From positions 1 through 13,112 of the forward strand of contig CAVPXM010000008.1 in assembly GCA_963709405.1 (NCBI GenBank): a stretch of 13,112 nucleotides of DNA. Reading direction: 5' to 3'. Position 1 is the stretch's first letter; each line of letters begins with the position of its first letter. A program made the translations under genes and the position numbers. Positions 3,194 through 10,551 of this stretch are shown one piece after another. The notes beneath the pieces are model-generated. The model worked only from the letters and a program-made list of their open reading frames with translations, was not told the origin of the DNA and did not search any database. The stretch is from an uncultured Nitrososphaerales archaeon (GTDB taxonomy: Archaea; Thermoproteota; Nitrososphaeria; Nitrososphaerales; Nitrososphaeraceae).

Positions 3194-3201
3194 TCACCTC
3201 C
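3194..3201 (-). promoter_or_regulatory. Shine-Dalgarno site GGAGGTGA for the kdpF-like ORF (overlaps kdpC stop)
   Basis: Plus strand tcacctcc at 3194-3201; 8-nt spacer to the TTG at 3185. Confidence 0.7.
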
Positions 3202-3748
3202 GTTGCAACTTACTTAAGAATTCTTGGTAATGCTCAGGGTACTGTTTCATCAATTCAAGATTCACTTCCAACACATTGACATATTGTGGAGCAAAGAACA
3301 AACCATTGGTTATTTTATTTCTTTCTATATTAAGTTGAATCAATGTTTCTAGAACGTTTTGCGATATTCCAGTTGCTTTACTTACATTAGAAACTTGTGC
3401 AAAAGCGTTTTCAGGAGTAATATCCGGATCTACTGTTGACGCTGAATCTGCCGAAGGTCGTGAATGAAAGAATTTTGCAGATTTAAATTCTTGAGCAATC
3501 AGTTTTGATCCTACAATTTTCCCATCTAGGGTAAGAAGGCTGCCAGTAGATTGGTATGGCAATGTATATTCTCCTATCAACACTAAGACAATGGGATATG
3601 CTATACCAGTTATTAAGATCATTAATAGTACAACTCTTAGCGACGGCCGTATATTTTGAGCAAATAATTCTTTTAGTGAAGATCCAGTCGCAATTTGAGT
3701 TAGTAGGTGCTTAATCATACCACCATCATCTTTAGTACTTTTTGTCAT
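3194..3748 (-). CDS. kdpC: K+-transporting ATPase subunit C (compact form)
   Basis: N-terminal TM with ITGIAYP, PYQSTGSL, GSKLIAQEF, FHSRPSA, DPDITPENAFAQV, YVNVLEVNLEL; follows kdpB. Confidence 0.93.
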   Translation of the reverse strand: MTKSTKDDGGMIKHLLTQIATGSSLKELFAQNIRPSLRVVLLMILITGIAYPIVLVLIGEYTLPYQSTGSLLTLDGKIVGSKLIAQEFKSAKFFHSRPSADSASTVDPDITPENAFAQVSNVSKATGISQNVLETLIQLNIERNKITNGLFFAPQYVNVLEVNLELMKQYPEHYQEFLSKLQRR

Positions 3749-3757
3749 ATCGCTCGC

Positions 3758-3764
3758 TCACCTC
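3758..3764 (-). promoter_or_regulatory. Shine-Dalgarno site GAGGTGA for kdpC
   Basis: Plus strand tcacctc at 3758-3764, 9 nt before the kdpC ATG at 3748. Confidence 0.7.
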
Positions 3765-6148
3765 ATCTCATAAACGTAGATAGAATCATATCAATTGCCT
3801 TTATGCCCACAAATGGTAAAGCAGCTCCACCTAAACCATAAATTAACATATTTCTAATAAATGTCTTTTGTGGCGGTTCAGCTTTGAACTTGACTCCTCG
3901 TAATGATAATGGGATAAGAGCTGGTATGATTATTGCATTAAATATCAGAGTTGAAAGTATTGCTGTTTCAGGACTGTGAAGATGCATTATATTTAGGATT
4001 TGCAATTTGGGATTATTGCTCGCTGCAAACATAGCTGGAAGAATTGCAAAGTATTTGGCGGCATCATTAGCAATGCTAAATGTGGTAATGGCACCACGTG
4101 TCATAAGCAGCTGTTTACCTAGTTTTACGACTTTCATTATATTGGAAGGGTCAGAGTCCAAGTCAACCATATTTGGCAGCTTCTTTAGCTGCTTGCGGTT
4201 CCACTATTCATTGCTAGTCCTACATCAGCTTTGGCAAGTGCCGGAGCATCATTCGTTCCATCCCCTACCATTCCAATAACATGTCCTTTCAATTGCTCTT
4301 GTTCAACTCTGATTAGTTTGTCTGTTGGTTTTGCTTCTGCTATTACTTCATCAACATCGGCTTCTTTGGCAATAACTTGAGCTGTCAATTGATTATCTCC
4401 TGTAATCATTACCGTGGTTATGCCAGTAGCTACGAACTTCATTTAGCTTTTCTCGTATATTCTCTTTTAAATTATCTTTAAGAACTACAAGACCAATTAC
4501 TTCATTATTTATAGACACAGCTAATGGTGTTGCACCATTCTTGGATACTTCTTGTGCTTTCCATTTTATTTCCGCCTGATTTACATTCGGTCCTGCTAAA
4601 TCAATTATCATATCTATCGCACCTTTAAGAATCTTTACTTCGCTTTTTGTTTCTTCTAATTTTAGAAGCAGATCATGGACTCTACTTTTACTAGCACGAT
4701 CGACATCTCTTTCAATTTCTTCTATCGTTGGATTAACTGCTGCCTGTTCCGGCCTCGTCAGTGCTGCTAACAGCCTTACTACTACTACCACCTATAAAAC
4801 CTCTTGCTAATGATCTGAATTCTTCTTCTTGTTCCTTATTTAGTATTGCTTCTTTACTTGCAATAAATTCAATACCACTACATCTAGTTTCAGCTGTAAA
4901 TTCGATAGATCTAGCTGGTATTACTTTCTCCAAAAGTGGTGGAACAAATTTCTTCTCTTCTGCAAGATCGACTATTGACTTACCTTCATGTGTAGTATCA
5001 TGAATAGATGCTGCAAAAGCTGCTTGTCCTACATCTTTTTCAGTGTATTCACTCATAGGTATGAATTCTACAGCACTTCTACTACCTTCTGTAATTGTTC
5101 CAGTTTTATCTAATATCAAAACATCACAATCTCCAGCAGCTTCGATTCCTTTGCCAGATTTTGCTACAATGCTGTCCCTTCCTAATCTCGTTATGCCAGC
5201 AACACCTATTGCTGGGAGTAAAGCTCCGATTGTTGTTGGCATCAGTGCGACCAATAGAGCTACCTGTGTAGCAATATCAGCCTTAAGTCCAAGAAAATCT
5301 GTAAAGAATAAAAGTGTTCCAATTACCATTATGAAAATTAAAGATAATCCTGCAAGTAACATTGATAAAGCAATTTCATTTTTGGTCTTTGGTCTTGTTG
5401 AACTCTGTATCAGACTAATCATCTCATCTAGAAAGCTTCTACCAGCCTCAGAGGTAATTTCTACCACTAACTTGTCACTTGCTACTCTGGTCCCACCTAT
5501 TACATGATCACCTTCTTCTTTGAACACAGGATTTGATTCTCCTGTCATCATTGATTCGTCCACGAATGCTTTGCCATCATTTACAAGACCATCTCTCGGT
5601 ATTATTTCACCAACATATACCATTACTTCGTCTCCTGGTTTAAGGCTAGTCGATGTTACCGTGACCTCTTTCTCATTATGTACCATCTTGTGTGCTGATA
5701 CTTCTTTTTCTAAACTACGAAGCGAGTCCACTCTTGCCCTAGCTTGGGCTTCAGATAATGATTCTGAAAATGTAGCAAACCATACAGTCAAAATCAGTAT
5801 TATAGCCGTTTGAAAATACAGAGCATTACTTTGATTTACAAATTCTATTGATATATTAGCAGGAAGTAATGCTATGGCAAGGACTACGATAAATCCCACT
5901 TCTACTGTGAACATGACTGGATTATTTTTTGCTAAATAACGTGGATCAAGTTTAGTTATAGAATCTATAATTACTCTTTTATTTATCCAACCTAATGCAC
6001 TCTTGATTTTATGACCAGCATGACTATTCCCATTACCATTATTGTTACTGATAGTACGATTGTTATTGTCATTACCCAAAATAGCACTATCTTTATTTTT
6101 TTCGTTAGCTTGGTTCATTCTCATTTTAATATTTTCAAATATCTTCAT
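3763..6148 (-). CDS. kdpB: K+-transporting P-type ATPase subunit B, split into four ORFs by four +1 indels (probably sequence errors; pseudogene not excluded)
   Basis: Fragments 4733-6157, 4393-4791, 4185-4442 and 3763-4170 carry, in order, [47 protein letters not shown] and [13 protein letters not shown]. Removing single bases near 4735, 4431, 4193 and 4172 gives one ~793-aa frame. Start placed at ATG 6148 because of SD spacing; the track uses 6157. Confidence 0.93.
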
Positions 6149-6158
6149 TACTATCATA

Positions 6159-6165: not shown

Positions 6166-7806
6166 CTAAAGTGAAAATGGTCCTATCACTATAAATGGGA
6201 AGAAAGTAAGCGCTGTAAGAAGAAAAGTTACTACTACCAGTACTGTGATGAATACCGGGCCTTGTGTTTTTATTGGTTCAACGACTTCTCTCCTATCTTT
6301 TTCTGTGAATGAACCTGCGATTGCTAGCATTAGTCCCATTGGAAGAAATCTACCAATAAAAATTACTATTGCAGTTGATATATTCCAAAATGGGGTATTT
6401 GCTGAAGTACCAAAATAATCAGAACCATTGTTAGCTGCGGCTGATGCATATTCGTACAATGTCTGAGTAAATCCCATAGGTGTTATATGATGTCCTGTTC
6501 CACCTGTTCCTCCCATAATAGCCTGAGTACTTCCAGTTGCAAATGCAATTACTGCTGGAATTAATATTATTGCAGGGTGACTCAAAAATACGAATACTAC
6601 TAATTTTACATCTCTTGGACTAATCTTCATACTTAAAAATTCTGGTGTTTTGCCCACCATCAGACCAACTACAAAAAGTGTTAAAATAACATACATAATC
6701 ATGTATGTTATTCCTACTCCAACTGCACCTGGAATTGATTGAACAAACATGGCAAGAAGGAAAGATATTATTGCATTTGGTGACATCCCCAAAAGTGAAG
6801 AATTCACCGCTCCTGTATTTGTGGAAATAGAGGCTGTATTAAATAGTGTGGTCCCAAAATTTCCAAATCTAGTTTCTAATAATGATGGTCCGCTTATTGC
6901 TGAGAAGGCTATTATAAGCAGGGCGCCAAATGAAATAAGTATAGCGATCAAAATTGATATGCCTCTCCATTTACCTATGAGTTTAGCATACGCAATTGGA
7001 AACGACAATGGAATTACAAGCATCAAAAATATTTCATACATATTTGAAAGGCCTGTAGGATTTTCAAATGGATGAGCAGAATTCGCGCCATAAAATCCTC
7101 CACCATTGCTGCCAAGTTGCTTTATAGCTAGCATAGAGGCTACGGGGCCAACTCTGATATCCTGCTTGTTTCCTTCCAAAGTATTTGCAGTTACTGTAGT
7201 ATTAAGAGTTTGTGGGAGTCCAGTTACCATAAGCACTACAGATGAAATCACTGCTACAGGAAGTAATAGTGTTACTATTACTCTTATAAAATCTACATAG
7301 AAATTTCCTAGACCAAAATTCTTTCTAATAAATGATCGGATTAAAGCAAAAGCAGCTACAATTCCAGAGGCAGGAGCAACAAACTGGGTAAATGTAAGGG
7401 CAATCATTTGTGATAAATTGGAAAGTTGTTGATCTCCTGCATAATGCTGCAGGTTAGTATCTGTTACAAATGAAATTGCCGTATTAAAAGCCAAATCTAA
7501 TGATAGTCCCTTGAAGTTTTGGTGCGACGGTAAATAATTCTGTAGTGTTAGAACTAAAATAATGAAAACCGCAACTATCATGTTTGTTAGAAACAGAGCA
7601 AAAAAGTACTGCTTCCAGGTCATCTGCTTGGATGCATCAATTCCAATTACTTTATAGAACCCACTCTCCACCTTGGCAAGTGTCTTTTCTAACGGTCTCA
7701 TTTCGAAGGAAATCATTCTGGCAATATAGAGCCCAAAAGGAATTGCCATACCTAATGTTCCTACCAATACAACAGCTAACTCTATTATTGTGTCCACATA
7801 GGTCAC
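6166..7806 (-). CDS. kdpA: K+-transporting ATPase subunit A (K+-binding SKT-family subunit)
   Basis: 546 aa with MTWKQY, AFNTAISFVTDTNLQHY, GNFYVD, GPVAS..AIKQLGSNGGGFYGANSAHPFENP, ETRFG, GAVNS, GLMVGKTPE, LYEYASAAANNGS, GRF and ALTFFP. GTG start. Confidence 0.96.
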   Translation of the reverse strand: MTYVDTIIELAVVLVGTLGMAIPFGLYIARMISFEMRPLEKTLAKVESGFYKVIGIDASKQMTWKQYFFALFLTNMIVAVFIILVLTLQNYLPSHQNFKGLSLDLAFNTAISFVTDTNLQHYAGDQQLSNLSQMIALTFTQFVAPASGIVAAFALIRSFIRKNFGLGNFYVDFIRVIVTLLLPVAVISSVVLMVTGLPQTLNTTVTANTLEGNKQDIRVGPVASMLAIKQLGSNGGGFYGANSAHPFENPTGLSNMYEIFLMLVIPLSFPIAYAKLIGKWRGISILIAILISFGALLIIAFSAISGPSLLETRFGNFGTTLFNTASISTNTGAVNSSLLGMSPNAIISFLLAMFVQSIPGAVGVGITYMIMYVILTLFVVGLMVGKTPEFLSMKISPRDVKLVVFVFLSHPAIILIPAVIAFATGSTQAIMGGTGGTGHHITPMGFTQTLYEYASAAANNGSDYFGTSANTPFWNISTAIVIFIGRFLPMGLMLAIAGSFTEKDRREVVEPIKTQGPVFITVLVVVTFLLTALTFFPFIVIGPFSL

Positions 7807-8384
7807 TCACTATTCGATTTGATTATCTTAGCACGACATCATTATCCGCAAATAAAAATCTTATGGTTAGCTTCATTTATTTTATCGAATGAATCTAATA
7901 AAATAATTTTAAACATTTCCATATAGACTAGAAAATCCATATTATAAAAAATATAATATTAAAAATTATCTCAATATCTATTATATTAAATATCTAATTT
8001 ATTTTAAATTAATAGCAAACTTGTAAAATATATGCTTCATGATTGAAAATGAATCTGGATTGGCATTACTGTTTTCAAATAGATCGATTATTATTGCTAC
8101 ATTAGCACCTTACCCGTCATGAGATCGATATTAAAGATTTAAATACTAATTTAGGAATTTTCCGGGGTAAGTATTATTTAGCCATGGTAGCCTGCCTACA
8201 ACATCGTACTCCAATTCTTTATAATTATACGAGTAATGTGAATTATTCAGATTTTTCACATTTTCCTGCAATTTACTTAAAGACCTTCATTTCGCCTTGT
8301 TATGCTATACAATACTTCGTTACTACGGTAAAATATAAATAGTCGTCTATTGTAGACGCTTAACAAATTGAGTGACCTATGTGG
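7794..8384. repeat. Perfect 16-bp inverted repeat (TGAGTGACCTATGTGG) at 7794-7809 (minus) and 8369-8384 (plus), each copy containing a GTG start codon
   Basis: ccacataggtcactca at 7794-7809 is the reverse complement of tgagtgacctatgtgg at 8369-8384. A further imperfect match (24/30 nt) lies between 7719-7748 and 8433-8462. Confidence 0.9.
8326..8341 (+). promoter_or_regulatory. Putative archaeal BRE/TATA promoter for the plus-strand cluster
   Basis: A purine-rich stretch followed by TATAAATA (8334-8341), about 30 nt before GTG 8372, consistent with a near-leaderless transcript. The AT-rich background lowers specificity. Confidence 0.45.
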
Positions 8385-8719
8385 TAACAACATTAAAAGA
8401 TGTAGGCGTTATCATAATGGGAATAATTGTATTGGCAATCCTTTTTGGACCGTATGTTGCCAATTCAATATCCATCGTAAATAAAACATGTAAAAGGCTA
8501 ACGAGAAAACTTAAGGTTAGTTGTGATATACTTCGCAGAAACATCAAAGGATCAAATAAGCGCAAATCAGATCATAGTTTGATATCAATAGCTTTCATTC
8601 CTGTCTGTGAAATTATCAGTATATTTATACTCATGAATTTGCCTGGTATACATATCCTTACATTTTCATTATTAAGAATACCATTGCTCTTGCATAAGGA
8701 AATGATAATAGCATTATGA
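8372..8719 (+). CDS. Small membrane protein; diverged paralogue of the KdpA N-terminus (no pore/selectivity filter)
   Basis: MTYVVTTLKDVGVIIMGIIVLAILFGPYVANSISI aligns with KdpA MTYV-DTIIELAVVLVGTLGMAIPFGLYIARMISF (15/35 identical), followed by a basic loop and a second hydrophobic segment. The stop overlaps the next start (ATGA). Confidence 0.65.
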   Translation: MTYVVTTLKDVGVIIMGIIVLAILFGPYVANSISIVNKTCKRLTRKLKVSCDILRRNIKGSNKRKSDHSLISIAFIPVCEIISIFILMNLPGIHILTFSLLRIPLLLHKEMIIAL

Positions 8720-9379
8720 TGAAAAAAGACGATATAGCTATCCTGAGTAAGAACACAACACAAGAAATAATATCGGACAAAATTAATGCATTAGGCACGA
8801 GACTACAGCTCACAGACAAGGTAATTCATAAAATCGAGTATATCTATGATAAAGCTAAGGAAGTAGGACTAGTTCGGGGAAGGGGTTCTTATATCAGTAC
8901 TTGCAGCTGCTGCATATGTAGCTTGTAGACAATTAGGAGTAACAAAAACAATGACTGATTTTACATCAATATTACATGTAGGACGAAAGCAGCTATCAAG
9001 GAATTATAGATTACTCATTAACAAACTCTCTCTCAAGATACCAAATAATGATCCTTTCATACTTCTTGATCAGTTGGCAAACAAATGCAATGTTGGAGAG
9101 GAAACAAAACGTCAAGCAAATATACTTATGAACTATTCATTACGAAATGATTTTCATGTTGGAAAGAATCCAATGTCGATAGTTGGTTCAGTACTTTACA
9201 TTGCGTGTGCCACTACATTAGAAAATCGTAGTCAAACAGCCGTTGCTAAGGCAGCGGGGATAACTAGTGTCACTCTTGGGAGTAGAATCAAGGATTTAAA
9301 AGAATTGCTTTGCAGTAGCAATAACAATAATAGAGCCTTATCGGATGGATATCAGCAGAACATCTTTAGTATCATTTAA
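8716..9379 (+). CDS. tfb: Transcription factor B (TFB/TFIIB) core-only paralogue, two cyclin repeats, with one +1 indel in G4 at 8882-8885
   Basis: ORFs 8716-8928 and 8951-9379 join after removing one G: ...GLVRGRVLISVLAAAAYVACRQLG...GKNPMSIVGSVLYIAC...SQTAVAKAAGITSVTLGSRIKDL (~220 aa). No N-terminal CxxC..CxxC Zn ribbon. Confidence 0.85.
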
Positions 9380-9397: not shown

Positions 9398-9967
9398 TTG
9401 AAGTCAGGCGATACTGTTGTGAATTATCAACTAATTGATGACATCAATCTTAAAATTATTGATATTTTAAATAAAGATGCTTCAACATCATTTGTTGATA
9501 TAGCAAAACGAATAGGTGTATCAGATGCAACTGTGCATATTAGAGTTAGAAGAATGATTGCAGCAGGTATAATCAACAAATTTACAATATCTGTAGATAA
9601 TGACCTTCTAGGATATGATCACCTGGCATTTATGGGAGTAAATATTTCGCCTGGTTCTGCAGATCAGATCATATCAGATCTATTAAGAGTTGAGGAAGTT
9701 TTAGAAATGCATGAATTGCATGGTAAATTTGATCTATTGCTAAAGATACGTGCTAAGAATTTAAATCAGATGAGAGATATAGTAGAGAATAAGATTTGTA
9801 AAATCCCTCATATTTTTAAAATAGAGTTAATGACTGTACTAAAAACAAAAAAGGAAGAACAAACTGTATCTCTTGAGAAGGATATTGAATATAATGACAT
9901 GCTACATTTAAATGAGGATCACTTAAAATCATCATCATTTTCTAACTTGTCACTTATCAGGGGTTAA
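9398..9967 (+). CDS. Lrp/AsnC family transcriptional regulator
   Basis: IDDINLKIIDILNKDASTSFVDIAKRIGVSDATVHIRVRRMIAAGII HTH plus a RAM domain (ELHGKFDLLLKI). The true start may be GTG 9419, after AGGCGA. Confidence 0.93.
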   Translation: MKSGDTVVNYQLIDDINLKIIDILNKDASTSFVDIAKRIGVSDATVHIRVRRMIAAGIINKFTISVDNDLLGYDHLAFMGVNISPGSADQIISDLLRVEEVLEMHELHGKFDLLLKIRAKNLNQMRDIVENKICKIPHIFKIELMTVLKTKKEEQTVSLEKDIEYNDMLHLNEDHLKSSSFSNLSLIRG

Positions 9968-9972
9968 ATTAT

Positions 9973-10551
9973 TTGAATTTAGACGGGCAAGAGACTGTTA
10001 ATGAATTTGATCTCTTAAAGAATGTCATTGGCCTATCAAAGGTGACAATAGATAGGGCAAAATCTGTCGTCAGAGAAGCTAATAGAAGGAAGCTAATAAG
10101 AGGAAGGACTGCTTCAACACTAGTAACTTCAGCAGTATATAATCCATGTAGAGAAACAAACACACTACAGACTTTGCCTGATATTGCTGCAATACTTAAT
10201 GTGAAGCGAAAGAGATTAGGAAAGTGGTCTAGAATGCTAATGAATAGTCTTGACCTTAAAGTTCCTACAATTGATCCATTTGAATATATGATGAGACTAT
10301 CTGACATGATTAATGTTAACGAAAAGGTAAAACGCCTTGCAATAGATATATTGAATGATATTATCATCAAGGAGATACCTGCAGGAATAAATCCTATGGC
10401 TGTTGCAACATCCGTACTTTATATCTACTGTAAAAAGTCCGGACATCATACTACCCAACGCAATATCGCTAAAGCAGCTGGCATAACGGAAGTAACACTA
10501 AGAAATAGATTCACAGAACTTGAGAAGAAGAAGGTGTTGTATTTAAATTAA
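9973..10551 (+). CDS. tfb: Second TFB/TFIIB core-only paralogue (192 aa)
   Basis: LIRGRTASTLVTSAVYNPCRE, GINPMAVATSVLYIYC and the canonical C-terminal HTH TQRNIAKAAGITEVTLRNRFTEL. An in-frame stop at 9943-9945 precludes an N-terminal Zn ribbon. Confidence 0.88.
   Translation: MNLDGQETVNEFDLLKNVIGLSKVTIDRAKSVVREANRRKLIRGRTASTLVTSAVYNPCRETNTLQTLPDIAAILNVKRKRLGKWSRMLMNSLDLKVPTIDPFEYMMRLSDMINVNEKVKRLAIDILNDIIIKEIPAGINPMAVATSVLYIYCKKSGHHTTQRNIAKAAGITEVTLRNRFTELEKKKVLYLN

What the first reader, a model, noticed from the sequence alone, without database searches (positions are those of the whole stretch)
8372..8719. Mini-KdpA: inverted, diverged duplicate of the kdpA 5' end heading the divergent operon
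Seen: the same GTG-ACC-TAT-GTG start as kdpA, 15/35 aa identity over the first TM (AIxFGxYxAxxIS conserved), a 24/30-nt match (8433-8462 vs 7719-7748), and a similar TM-basic loop-TM layout. It has no pore helix or filter. Many substitutions are conservative, the frame stays open for 115 codons, and it is translationally coupled to tfb, which argues for a retained protein rather than debris. Inference: it could be an accessory or dominant-negative Kdp subunit, or a membrane tether/anti-factor for the coupled TFB core.
Basis: partly seen in the sequence, partly recalled or inferred. Interest (0 to 1): 0.75.

Follow-up and report, generated by a model that had tools for sequence, protein, structure and literature searches.

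The report
Small membrane gene born from kdpA
A short membrane-protein gene whose front end is an old, flipped copy of the start of the neighbouring potassium-pump gene kdpA is kept intact in a few soil ammonia-oxidising archaea, always just ahead of two transcription regulators, so it is a real young gene rather than debris, although its job is still unknown.

Summary
The ORF at 8372-8719(+) shares its start region and first transmembrane helix with kdpA (6166-7806, -). The DNA local alignment scores 55 against 20.3±2.3 for shuffles. The 24/30-nt match is exact. The profile-profile E-value is 5e-6 over 45 columns. Only about the first 47 residues are KdpA-like. The rest matches nothing.

It is a retained gene. 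Relatives of 50-97% identity exist. All five lineages with DNA keep the frame open, and indels are in-frame. dN/dS is 0.37-0.57 with bootstrap intervals mostly below 1.

The family is narrow: 2 of 41 related genomes, against 14 of 41 with kdpA. It always precedes a zinc-ribbon-less TFB paralogue by a 4-nt overlap, usually followed by Lrp/AsnC, and it lies divergent from kdpA wherever flanks are available.

The predicted layout is TM1, a polybasic cytoplasmic helix, then TM2. Shorter variants of about 75 aa keep only TM1 and the basic part.

Function is inferred. My best reading is the membrane component of a kdp-linked regulatory cassette. Binding to either TFB or Kdp is untested.

In this window kdpB and the TFB gene carry frameshifts that close relatives lack.

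The parts
8372..8719 (+). Mini-KdpA ORF. 115 codons from the GTG at 8372, or 112 from the second GTG at 8381. Predicted TM1 at about residues 10-36, a polybasic segment at 37-69 (12 K/R against 2 D/E), TM2 at 70-90, and a hydrophobic tail at 91-115.
   Evidence: ORF. Hydropathy and charge. AlphaFold2 model with helices 2-61 and 71-114, mean pLDDT 61. Orthologues and selection. No Pfam family.
8369..8482 (+). The arm of the inverted partial duplication that lies in the mini gene. It runs from 3 nt upstream of the first GTG to about codon 37.
   Evidence: Local alignment score 55 against shuffles 20.3±2.3. All mini lineages against all genus-type kdpA 5' ends score 25-67 against shuffles 16.6±2.5, max 27.
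7700..7809 (-). The matching arm: the kdpA start region and first transmembrane helix.
   Evidence: (I1).
8369..8384 (+). A 16-nt string identical at both gene starts (its twin is at 7794-7809, -). It is likely the translation-initiation region. It is invariant in the mini genes of the window, L021, L023 and L026/L027, and in all five genus-type kdpA genes examined. L022/L025 differ at 2 positions.
8316..8341 (+). Conserved promoter block of the mini operon: a 13-nt conserved box at 8316-8328, then an A-rich BRE-like stretch, then a TATA-like octamer at 8334-8341, about 31-38 nt before the first GTG.
   Evidence: Alignment of 4 intergenic regions and the upstream strings. The reading as BRE/TATA rests on general knowledge of archaeal promoters and was not tested.
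8696..8706 (+). Shine-Dalgarno-like purine-rich string inside the last codons of the mini ORF, 10 nt before the TFB ATG. It is conserved in the other lineages.
   Evidence: The match to the 16S 3' end is recalled, not tested.
8716..9379 (+). Zinc-ribbon-less TFB paralogue (two cyclin repeats only). Its start overlaps the mini stop. In this window it is broken by at least two frameshifts: pieces 8716-8928 and 8951-9379, plus a shifted C-terminus.
   Evidence: Pfam TFIIB hits on both pieces. Three-frame reading. Intact 227-aa close relative P0024. Intact 235-aa open frame (229 aa from its ATG) in L021.
9398..9967 (+). Lrp/AsnC-family regulator, the third gene of the cassette.
   Evidence: Pfam. 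Same order in L021 and L023.
6166..7806 (-). kdpA, 546 aa, the donor of the duplicated 5' end. It is transcribed divergently across a 565-nt AT-rich spacer.
   Evidence: Pfam KdpA E=5.9e-173. Spacer lengths 565, 486 and 534 nt in three lineages.

Best explanation
SHOWN. 8372-8719 is a real, lineage-restricted protein-coding gene. It arose when the 5' end of kdpA was duplicated in inverted orientation on the other side of the kdp promoter region. The duplicated piece was the start region plus the first transmembrane helix and about 10 further codons, roughly 145 nt. This piece was extended by about 70 codons of unrelated sequence. The duplication is older than the split of the lineages that carry it. 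There is no sign of later gene conversion.

INFERRED FROM SEQUENCE. The product is a small inner-membrane protein: a short outside N-terminus, a KdpA-type TM1, a strongly basic cytoplasmic helix, a second TM, and a short hydrophobic tail. A shorter natural form keeps only TM1 and the basic helix, so that part is the functional core.

INFERRED FROM CONTEXT. It is the first gene of a three-gene cassette: mini, a zinc-ribbon-less TFB, and Lrp/AsnC. It is expressed from a conserved BRE/TATA-like promoter facing kdpABC. This genome has no recognisable KdpD sensor.

My most likely reading is that the cassette is a kdp-linked transcriptional control module and that the mini protein is its membrane-resident component. 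It would place or hold one of the two regulators, or their mRNA and nascent chains, at the membrane, where K+/Kdp status can be read. The shared start region would put its synthesis under the same initiation signals as kdpA.

My odds: real selected gene of this origin about 0.9. Membrane protein about 0.75. Membrane component of a kdp-linked regulatory module about 0.35-0.4.
For: Origin. DNA and profile similarity is confined to the first ~47 residues. The remaining 234 nt match nothing in kdpA or in the window: scores 21-25, at or below shuffle means of 20-27. Mini 5' ends of every lineage resemble every genus-type kdpA 5' end, with no within-genome excess: win-win 55, L021 kdpA against the window's mini 67.

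Real gene.
- 8 database relatives at 57-97% identity among 29 candidates.
- 10 representatives at E<=0.001 among 1.84 billion. I set one aside as a spurious repeat protein.
- 3 full-length open copies in G006 and 4 metagenome loci.
- 0 stops in frame against 7-15 in the two other forward frames, in each of 5 lineages.
- P(open for 78 random codons) is about 0.002.
- Only in-frame indels.
- dN/dS is 0.37-0.45 for the window against the three G006 copies, with bootstrap 95% intervals of 0.21-0.74. It is 0.27-0.39 in the non-KdpA part, columns 39-108.
- Neighbours for scale: kdpA 0.12-0.14, TFB core 0.21-0.31, Lrp 0.29.

Topology. Hydropathy and charge. Two long helices in AlphaFold2.

Cassette.
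- The stop/start overlap with the TFB core is seen in the window and L004/L021. L014/L022 and L026/L027 have the same close-packed junction with the SD-like string. L017/L023 has lost the stop.
- Lrp follows in the window, L021 and L023.
- In the 7 genomes of the genus, the mini gene and this TFB subfamily (>=69% identity, no zinc ribbon) are both present in G000 and G006 and both unmatched in the other 5.
- kdpA lies divergent and adjacent in the window, L021, L022, L024 and L025. In L027 it is on the same contig with three other genes between.
- No KdpD (PF02702) match in the genome, which is 91% complete.
Against: - Selection is weak compared with the neighbours, and codon-position periodicity in the novel part is faint: 21/20/27 differences at positions 1/2/3 for the window against L021.
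- dN/dS against the short form is not clearly below 1: 0.57, interval 0.31-1.05.
- The structural model is of low confidence: pLDDT 61, pTM 0.32.
- No direct evidence of transcription start, translation or membrane insertion was obtained.
- Both the mini loop and the TFB core are basic (pI 10.1 and 9.6). That gives no electrostatic reason for them to bind.
- Kdp-bearing relatives do without the cassette: 12 of 14 kdpA genomes have no full-length mini match. It cannot be the general kdp regulator of the family.
- In L022/L024 the TFB and Lrp genes are reduced to a fusion remnant, yet the mini ORF is still open. That fits a role independent of the TFB, or a recent deletion.
- In this very window kdpB and the TFB gene are frameshifted. 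The module may be non-functional here, or the assembly may be faulty.
Confidence: 0.4

Rival explanations
1. Leader/coupling ORF. What matters is that the ORF is translated, not what it encodes. The duplicated kdpA start region gives the regulator operon the same initiation control as kdpA. Ribosomes finishing the mini ORF then re-initiate at the overlapping TFB start. The peptide would be a by-product.
For: - The 16-nt start string is identical in kdpA and in the mini gene across lineages whose proteins are only 50-56% identical, including synonymous positions.
- The stop/start overlap and an SD-like string inside the last codons are conserved.
- The C-terminal KEM(I/M) motif can be explained by that string.
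- ORF length varies between 72 and 124 aa.
- Selection on the peptide is weak.
Against: - dN/dS is below 1 when the first 6 and last codons are left out: 0.30-0.44, intervals below 1 for four of five pairs.
- The same holds in the novel middle part: 0.27-0.39.
- TM1 residues are conserved. Of the 9 invariant columns in 11 sequences, 6 lie in TM1: I14, I18, V20, A22, I23 and F25.
- The ORF stays open where the downstream TFB is deleted, in L022/L024.
- The TFB gene has its own SD-like site, so coupling is not needed.
Confidence: 0.2
2. Accessory Kdp subunit. The KdpA-type first helix lets the mini protein pack into the KdpABC complex. It would act as a KdpF-like stabiliser, or as a dominant-negative plug that competes with KdpA's own TM1 contacts.
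For: - TM1 is homologous to KdpA TM1, with the P/L-F-G-x-Y-x-A motif kept.
- The gene always lies next to kdpA where flanks are known.
- No KdpF (PF09604) match in the genome at E<=1, and no TM-like small ORF on the kdpA strand in the spacer.
Against: - It is not in the kdp operon. It sits on the opposite strand and is tied to regulators.
- 12 of 14 kdpA-bearing genomes searched have no full-length match, including 4 of the 6 kdpA-bearing genomes in the same genus.
- Its presence follows the TFB subfamily, not kdpA.
- No Pfam KdpF or KdpA hit in the ORF.
- Co-folding with KdpA/B/C was not run.
Confidence: 0.15
3. Non-functional relic. It would be a decaying partial duplication whose frame is open by chance.
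For: - No known domain, and nothing usable in the language-model atlas.
- Narrow distribution.
- Neighbouring genes in this window are frameshifted.
Against: - The frame is open in all five sequenced lineages at dS 0.6-0.9, while the other frames carry 7-15 stops.
- Only in-frame indels occur.
- dN/dS is significantly below 1.
- A conserved promoter block lies upstream.
Confidence: 0.05

Closest known systems
KdpA, K+-translocating subunit of the Kdp ATPase (Pfam PF03814)
   Same: The start region, first transmembrane helix and the beginning of the following cytoplasmic loop are homologous (DNA z about 15; hhalign E=5e-6 and 3e-5). Orientation is likely the same, with a basic loop after TM1.
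   Different: Only about 47 of KdpA's 546 residues are represented. None of the four pore repeats or the selectivity filter is present. There is no Pfam hit. The remaining ~70 residues are unrelated. In the KdpA literature the protein has 10 TMs, of which 8 form the four repeats (passage read in PMC6255902). That the duplicated helix is one of the two extra ones is my inference from its position.
KdpF, the small 'lipid-like' single-spanning subunit of KdpFABC (PF09604)
   Same: A small hydrophobic membrane peptide encoded beside kdpA. This genome has no recognisable KdpF.
   Different: No sequence match. It is 3-4 times longer and has a polybasic cytoplasmic segment. It is encoded on the opposite strand at the head of a regulator operon. 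It is missing from most kdp-bearing relatives.
Membrane anti-sigma factors co-transcribed with ECF sigma factors (bacteria)
   Same: A small membrane protein with a cytoplasmic segment, encoded in one operon and overlapping with a promoter-selectivity factor. TFB is the archaeal counterpart of sigma in promoter recognition. This is an analogy from general knowledge.
   Different: There is no homology. The gene order is reversed, with the membrane protein first. Binding is not shown. The partner lacks the zinc ribbon that recruits RNA polymerase, so it is more likely a competitor or repressor than an initiation factor. I found no archaeal anti-TFB in a full-text search for archaea, TFB, anti-sigma, membrane and sequester. 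That search returned 161 papers holding at least 4 of the 5 terms. I saw only the 10 listed titles and abstract starts, and none was on the topic.
Chimeric young genes made by partial duplication plus recruited new sequence
   Same: A duplicated 5' module (initiation region plus membrane anchor) fused to sequence of no detectable ancestry. The gene is taxonomically restricted and under relaxed but real purifying selection.
   Different: Here the donor and the new gene remain head-to-head neighbours and share a regulatory spacer. The new gene is wired to transcription factors.

Membership tests
KdpA (PF03814) | Match to the family profile above its curated cut-off | tested here: not met
   0 Pfam families for the 115-aa ORF at E<=0.01. 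kdpA itself scores 576 bits in the same call.
KdpA (PF03814) | Four M1-P-M2 pore repeats with a selectivity filter | tested here: not met
   Similarity ends at about residue 47. The remainder has no similarity to kdpA in either strand.
KdpA (PF03814) | Common ancestry of the N-terminal helix (partial homologue) | tested here: met
   DNA score 55 against 20.3±2.3. hhalign E=5.2e-6. Holds for all mini lineages against five genus-type kdpA genes.
KdpF (PF09604) | Profile match; about 25-30 aa single helix encoded at the head of the kdp operon on the same strand | tested here: not met
   No Pfam hit. No PF09604 match anywhere in the genome at E<=1. The gene is on the opposite strand.
Selected protein-coding gene (as opposed to pseudogene fragment) | Orthologues with intact frames, in-frame indels only, dN/dS below 1 | tested here: met
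   Five lineages have DNA. All are open in frame. dN/dS is 0.37-0.57. Bootstrap fraction with omega>=1 is <=0.003 for the four long-form pairs and 0.039 against the short form.
Integral membrane protein | Hydrophobic helices of TM length with positive-inside charge distribution | tested here: met
   Kyte-Doolittle 19-residue windows reach 2.1-2.5 at residues 4-31 and 70-88. 12 K/R lie in 37-69. Helices appear in the AlphaFold2 model. No dedicated topology predictor or experiment was available.
Anti-sigma-like membrane tether of a transcription factor | Encoded in one operon with its factor | tested here: met
   A 4-nt stop/start overlap with the TFB core in the window and L004/L021. The same close-packed junction in L014/L022 and L026/L027. 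Co-occurrence in 2 of 7 genus genomes, with neither found in the other 5. A single transcript was not demonstrated.
Anti-sigma-like membrane tether of a transcription factor | Direct binding and sequestration of the factor, released on a signal | not testable with these tools
   Needs pull-down, two-hybrid or structural work. No computational result here counts for or against it.

The most novel reading that the evidence does not exclude
The mini protein is an archaeal 'anti-TFB'. It would be a KdpA-derived membrane anchor whose basic cytoplasmic helix holds the zinc-ribbon-less TFB paralogue (or the Lrp regulator) at the membrane and releases it according to K+/Kdp status. That would give Nitrososphaeraceae a sensor-regulator pair for kdp that replaces KdpD/KdpE, and it would be the first membrane-gated general-transcription-factor paralogue in archaea.
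Probability: 0.12. Interest if true: 0.85.

Novelty: new variant of a known kind. Interest (0 to 1): 0.55.

Why it matters
The finding matters for three reasons.

1. It is a clean, datable example of gene birth in archaea. A promoter-proximal piece of a large transporter gene (initiation region plus one membrane helix) was copied, flipped and extended into a new small membrane protein that selection has kept.

2. How archaea without KdpD/KdpE control the Kdp pump is largely open. In Halobacterium only promoter elements have been mapped (passages read in PMC4299497). Kdp is induced in Nitrososphaera viennensis on air-exposed surfaces (passage read in PMC11561398). A conserved cassette facing kdpABC, made of a membrane protein, an RNA-polymerase-blind TFB and Lrp, gives concrete candidates to test.

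3. Zinc-ribbon-less TFB paralogues wired to a membrane protein would, if the tether idea holds, extend the anti-sigma logic to the archaeal and eukaryotic type of transcription machinery.

Tried and rejected
- Co-folding. The cytoplasmic segment of the mini protein (residues 31-72, alignment A1) was folded with the TFB core (alignment A4). The tool returned 'no answer' (score 0.02, mark 0.32). I use it neither for nor against binding.

- RNA evidence. Two runs on record as oligo-dT soil RNA-Seq (X17, X20) hold contigs covering 8410-8887 and 8671-8962. X17 also has a contig running across the kdpA start into the spacer (6863-8139). All data are contigs without strand or depth, and DNA carry-over is possible. 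I do not count this as expression evidence.

- Single-sequence BLASTP of mini against KdpA did not report the N-terminal match.

- The profile search of 1.84 billion representatives gave no KdpA at E<=0.001. It gave one 624-aa repetitive protein (P0016), which I discard as spurious.

- The search for longer or fused forms scored 7998 candidates and found none at E<=0.01. The tool itself calls this weak evidence.

- The protein atlas gave no usable hit.

- I did not run a fold search on the low-confidence two-helix model, because it would be meaningless.

- Gene conversion between kdpA and mini is rejected: there is no within-genome excess of similarity.

- Derivation of the C-terminal two thirds from kdpA in another frame or strand, or from elsewhere in the window, is rejected at the sensitivity of a local DNA alignment.

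- A second family next to kdpA in relatives also seemed to share the kdpA start region. It is not significant: DNA scores 18-19 against shuffles of about 20, hhalign E=0.008 with probability 5%.

- The palindrome at 8344-8358 between the TATA-like box and the start is not conserved in other lineages.

- Earlier-findings look-ups returned nothing.

- One paper id was not held. Supplementary tables of the papers read were not seen. The table in PMC11561398 may hold expression values for genes next to kdp in N. viennensis.
Full report
WHAT IS THERE.

The window is part or all of contig C8 of a 4.83-Mb, 100-contig genome, 91% complete. Related records are titled Nitrososphaeraceae archaeon MAGs.

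On the minus strand lie kdpA (6166-7806, Pfam E=5.9e-173), a fragmented kdpB (four pieces between 3763 and 6157) and kdpC (3194-3748).

Across a 565-nt AT-rich spacer, on the plus strand, lie these genes:
- the 115-codon ORF of the finding (8372-8719);
- a TFIIB-repeat protein without a zinc ribbon, in two frames (8716-8928 and 8951-9379);
- an Lrp/AsnC regulator (9398-9967);
- a second ribbon-less TFIIB-repeat protein (9973-10551);
- a DUF2334 protein and a family-2 glycosyltransferase.

Both kdpA and the ORF start with the same 16-nt string, which includes the three bases before the first GTG. In the whole genome that string occurs exactly at these two places, with one 2-mismatch site elsewhere and none for the reversed control.

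A gapped local alignment joins 8369-8482(+) to 7700-7809(-) with score 55. 500 shuffles gave 20.3±2.3, maximum 28.

At protein level a profile of the ORF's family aligns to the KdpA N-terminus over 45 columns at 36% identity, E=5.2e-6. Against full-length KdpA the only hit is again N-terminus to N-terminus (E=3e-5).

Single-sequence BLASTP missed this. The remaining 234 nt of the ORF match nothing in kdpA on either strand or elsewhere in the window.

So about 145 nt were duplicated in inverted orientation: the start region, TM1 and some ten further codons.

IT IS A GENE, NOT DEBRIS.

Relatives found:
- The word-indexed protein search found 8 relatives among 29 candidates, at 57-97% identity.
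- The exhaustive profile search of 1.84 billion representatives found 10 at E<=0.001. I discard one, a 624-aa repeat protein.
- Six-frame searches of 41 related genomes found full-length matches only in G000 and in G006 of the same genus, where three copies are 51-56% identical and all open. The other matches at E<=1 are weak hits, several of them to kdpA N-termini.
- Metagenome contigs added four loci.

In the five lineages for which I have DNA, the reading frame has no stop, while the two other forward frames have 7-15 each. A random 78-codon extension of this composition stays open with probability of about 0.002. All indels are in multiples of three.

Nei-Gojobori dN/dS values:
- 0.37-0.45 between the window and the three G006 copies, with bootstrap 95% intervals of 0.21-0.74;
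- 0.27-0.39 in the part that is not KdpA-derived;
- 0.57 (0.31-1.05) against the short form.

For scale, the same method gives 0.12-0.14 for kdpA, 0.21-0.31 for the TFB core and 0.29 for Lrp.

Constraint is therefore real but relaxed. The third-position excess of substitutions is modest.

AGE AND SPREAD.

Mini 5' ends from every lineage resemble the 5' ends of all five genus-type kdpA genes (scores 25-67; shuffles 16.6±2.5, max 27). Pairs from the same genome are no more alike than pairs from different genomes. The copy is therefore old and is not being homogenised.

The family is narrow. kdpA was found in 14 of 41 genomes, the mini gene in 2 of 41.

Two architectures exist:
- long forms of 104-124 aa;
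- short forms of about 72-82 aa that stop after the basic segment (L026/L027, P0008, P0010, P0013, P0015).

ANATOMY OF THE PRODUCT.

Hydropathy gives a TM helix at about residues 10-36, a segment 37-69 with 12 K/R against 2 D/E, a second TM at 70-90 and a hydrophobic tail.

AlphaFold2 on the 11-sequence alignment gives two long helices (2-61, 71-114) at low confidence: pLDDT 61, pTM 0.32.

Of the 9 invariant columns, 6 lie in TM1: I14, I18, V20, A22, I23 and F25. The KdpA-like F-G-x-Y/H-x-A motif is largely kept.

WHICH START CODON.

In L022/L025 the first codon is GTA. Gene callers started 7 of 8 database relatives at the second GTG. A divergent kdpA (L027) changes the second and third codons synonymously, which suggests that in kdpA these codons are translated.

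For the mini gene, 8381 is at least as likely a start as 8372. Part of the shared string may then act as leader or ribosome-binding site. Its invariance at synonymous positions hints at a nucleotide-level role. With so few lineages this is only suggestive.

CONTEXT.

Upstream of the ORF all four aligned lineages share a 13-nt box, an A-rich stretch and a TATA-like octamer 31-38 nt before the first GTG.

The ORF's stop overlaps the TFB start (ATGA). An SD-like purine string sits in its last codons, and both features recur in other lineages. L023 has lost the stop and reads 9 codons further.

The TFB partner belongs to a distinct subfamily of 210-256 aa without the zinc-ribbon domain. Canonical 300-aa TFBs with the ribbon are only about 45% identical.

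In the seven genomes of the genus, this subfamily and the mini gene occur together in G000 and G006. Neither was found in the other five, although each genome has at least four canonical TFB matches.

kdpA lies head-to-head with the mini gene in the window, L021, L022, L024 and L025. In L027 it is on the same contig with three other genes between. L023 and L026 are too short to tell.

The genome gave no KdpD and no KdpF profile match.

HOW IT MOST LIKELY WORKS.

Shown: origin, conservation, operon position.

Inferred: the gene encodes a small membrane protein made together with a TFB paralogue that can presumably bind TBP and promoter DNA but cannot recruit RNA polymerase (no ribbon), and with an Lrp regulator, all facing the kdp promoter.

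I read the three genes as a kdp-linked control cassette, with the mini protein as its membrane-resident part. I put that at 35-40%.

The rivals:
- A coupling or leader ORF whose peptide is irrelevant (20%). This is weakened by dN/dS below 1 outside the start and SD regions, and by persistence of the ORF where the TFB is deleted.
- An accessory or dominant-negative Kdp subunit (15%). This is weakened by its absence from 12 of 14 kdpA genomes and by its strand and operon.
- A relic (5%).

No result here bears on physical binding.

CAVEATS FOR THIS WINDOW.

kdpB changes frame at least three times and the TFB gene at least twice. Contigs from four runs of three studies lack single bases at 4172 (2 runs), 4193 (3 runs), 4432 (3 runs) and 4746 (4 runs) relative to the window. 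A 227-aa near-identical TFB (P0024) is intact. The sites are not homopolymers.

I cannot tell assembly error from real decay. If the decay is real, the cassette and pump may be inactive in this strain, while kdpA, the mini ORF and Lrp remain intact.

NOVELTY.

The family has no name, no Pfam model and no annotation beyond 'hypothetical protein'.

I found nothing on it in print. The searches were:
- KdpFABC with Nitrososphaera: 2 papers;
- TFB, Nitrososphaera, paralogs and zinc ribbon: 11 papers holding at least 3 of the 4 terms, 10 listed;
- archaea, TFB, anti-sigma, membrane and sequester: 161 papers, 10 listed;
- kdp regulation in Halobacterium: 173 papers, 8 listed.

For all of these I saw the listings. 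I read passages only in PMC11561398, PMC6255902 and PMC4299497.

The kind of event, a chimeric young gene from a partial duplication, is known. The particular product and its wiring to a ribbon-less TFB next to kdp are new.

Noticed in passing
window 3763-6157 (-): kdpB is split over at least four ORFs by at least three frame changes, none in a homopolymer. Relatives have one intact open frame of about 800 aa (803 aa stop-to-stop). Contigs of four public runs lack single bases at 4172, 4193, 4432 and 4746 relative to the window. This is either assembly error or a decaying pump.
   Followed up: partly
window 8716-9379 (+): The zinc-ribbon-less TFB gene has a +1 shift near 8897 and another near its 3' end. 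A 227-aa near-identical protein from the database (P0024) is intact.
   Followed up: partly
L012:298-849, L013:147-683, L022:7162-7713, L026:585-1376 and 3226-3699, L027:398-874 and 1415-1885: A second unnamed family: an N-terminal TM helix plus a soluble domain with a faint DUF2171 hint (E=0.03). It sits next to kdpA in relatives. In G001 and G002 it occupies the divergent position that the mini cassette holds here. Its start region looks like kdpA's in the same register, but the resemblance is not statistically significant.
   Followed up: partly
window 9973-10551 (+): A second ribbon-less TFIIB-repeat protein (192 aa, Pfam E=5.4e-28) lies directly after Lrp, followed with a 1-nt overlap by a DUF2334 gene. 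Its relation to the first TFB core was not examined.
   Followed up: no
L022:5330-6440 and L024:1234-2345: In one lineage the TFB N-terminus is fused to the C-terminal half of Lrp (a deletion). ORFs that look like a transposase follow; I did not test them against Pfam. The mini ORF upstream is still open.
   Followed up: partly
G006 (contigs C245, C416, C421, C493, C648): This same-genus MAG holds four kdpA matches and three mini copies at 6% contamination. It may be a mixture of strains or may truly carry several kdp loci.
   Followed up: no
window 8344-8358: A 6-bp-stem palindrome lies between the TATA-like box and the mini start. It is present only in this lineage.
   Followed up: yes
L041 (G000:C95:20507-20522): The only other near-match (2 mismatches) to the 16-nt start string in the genome. 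It precedes a short ORF of about 35 codons of no evident relation.
   Followed up: partly
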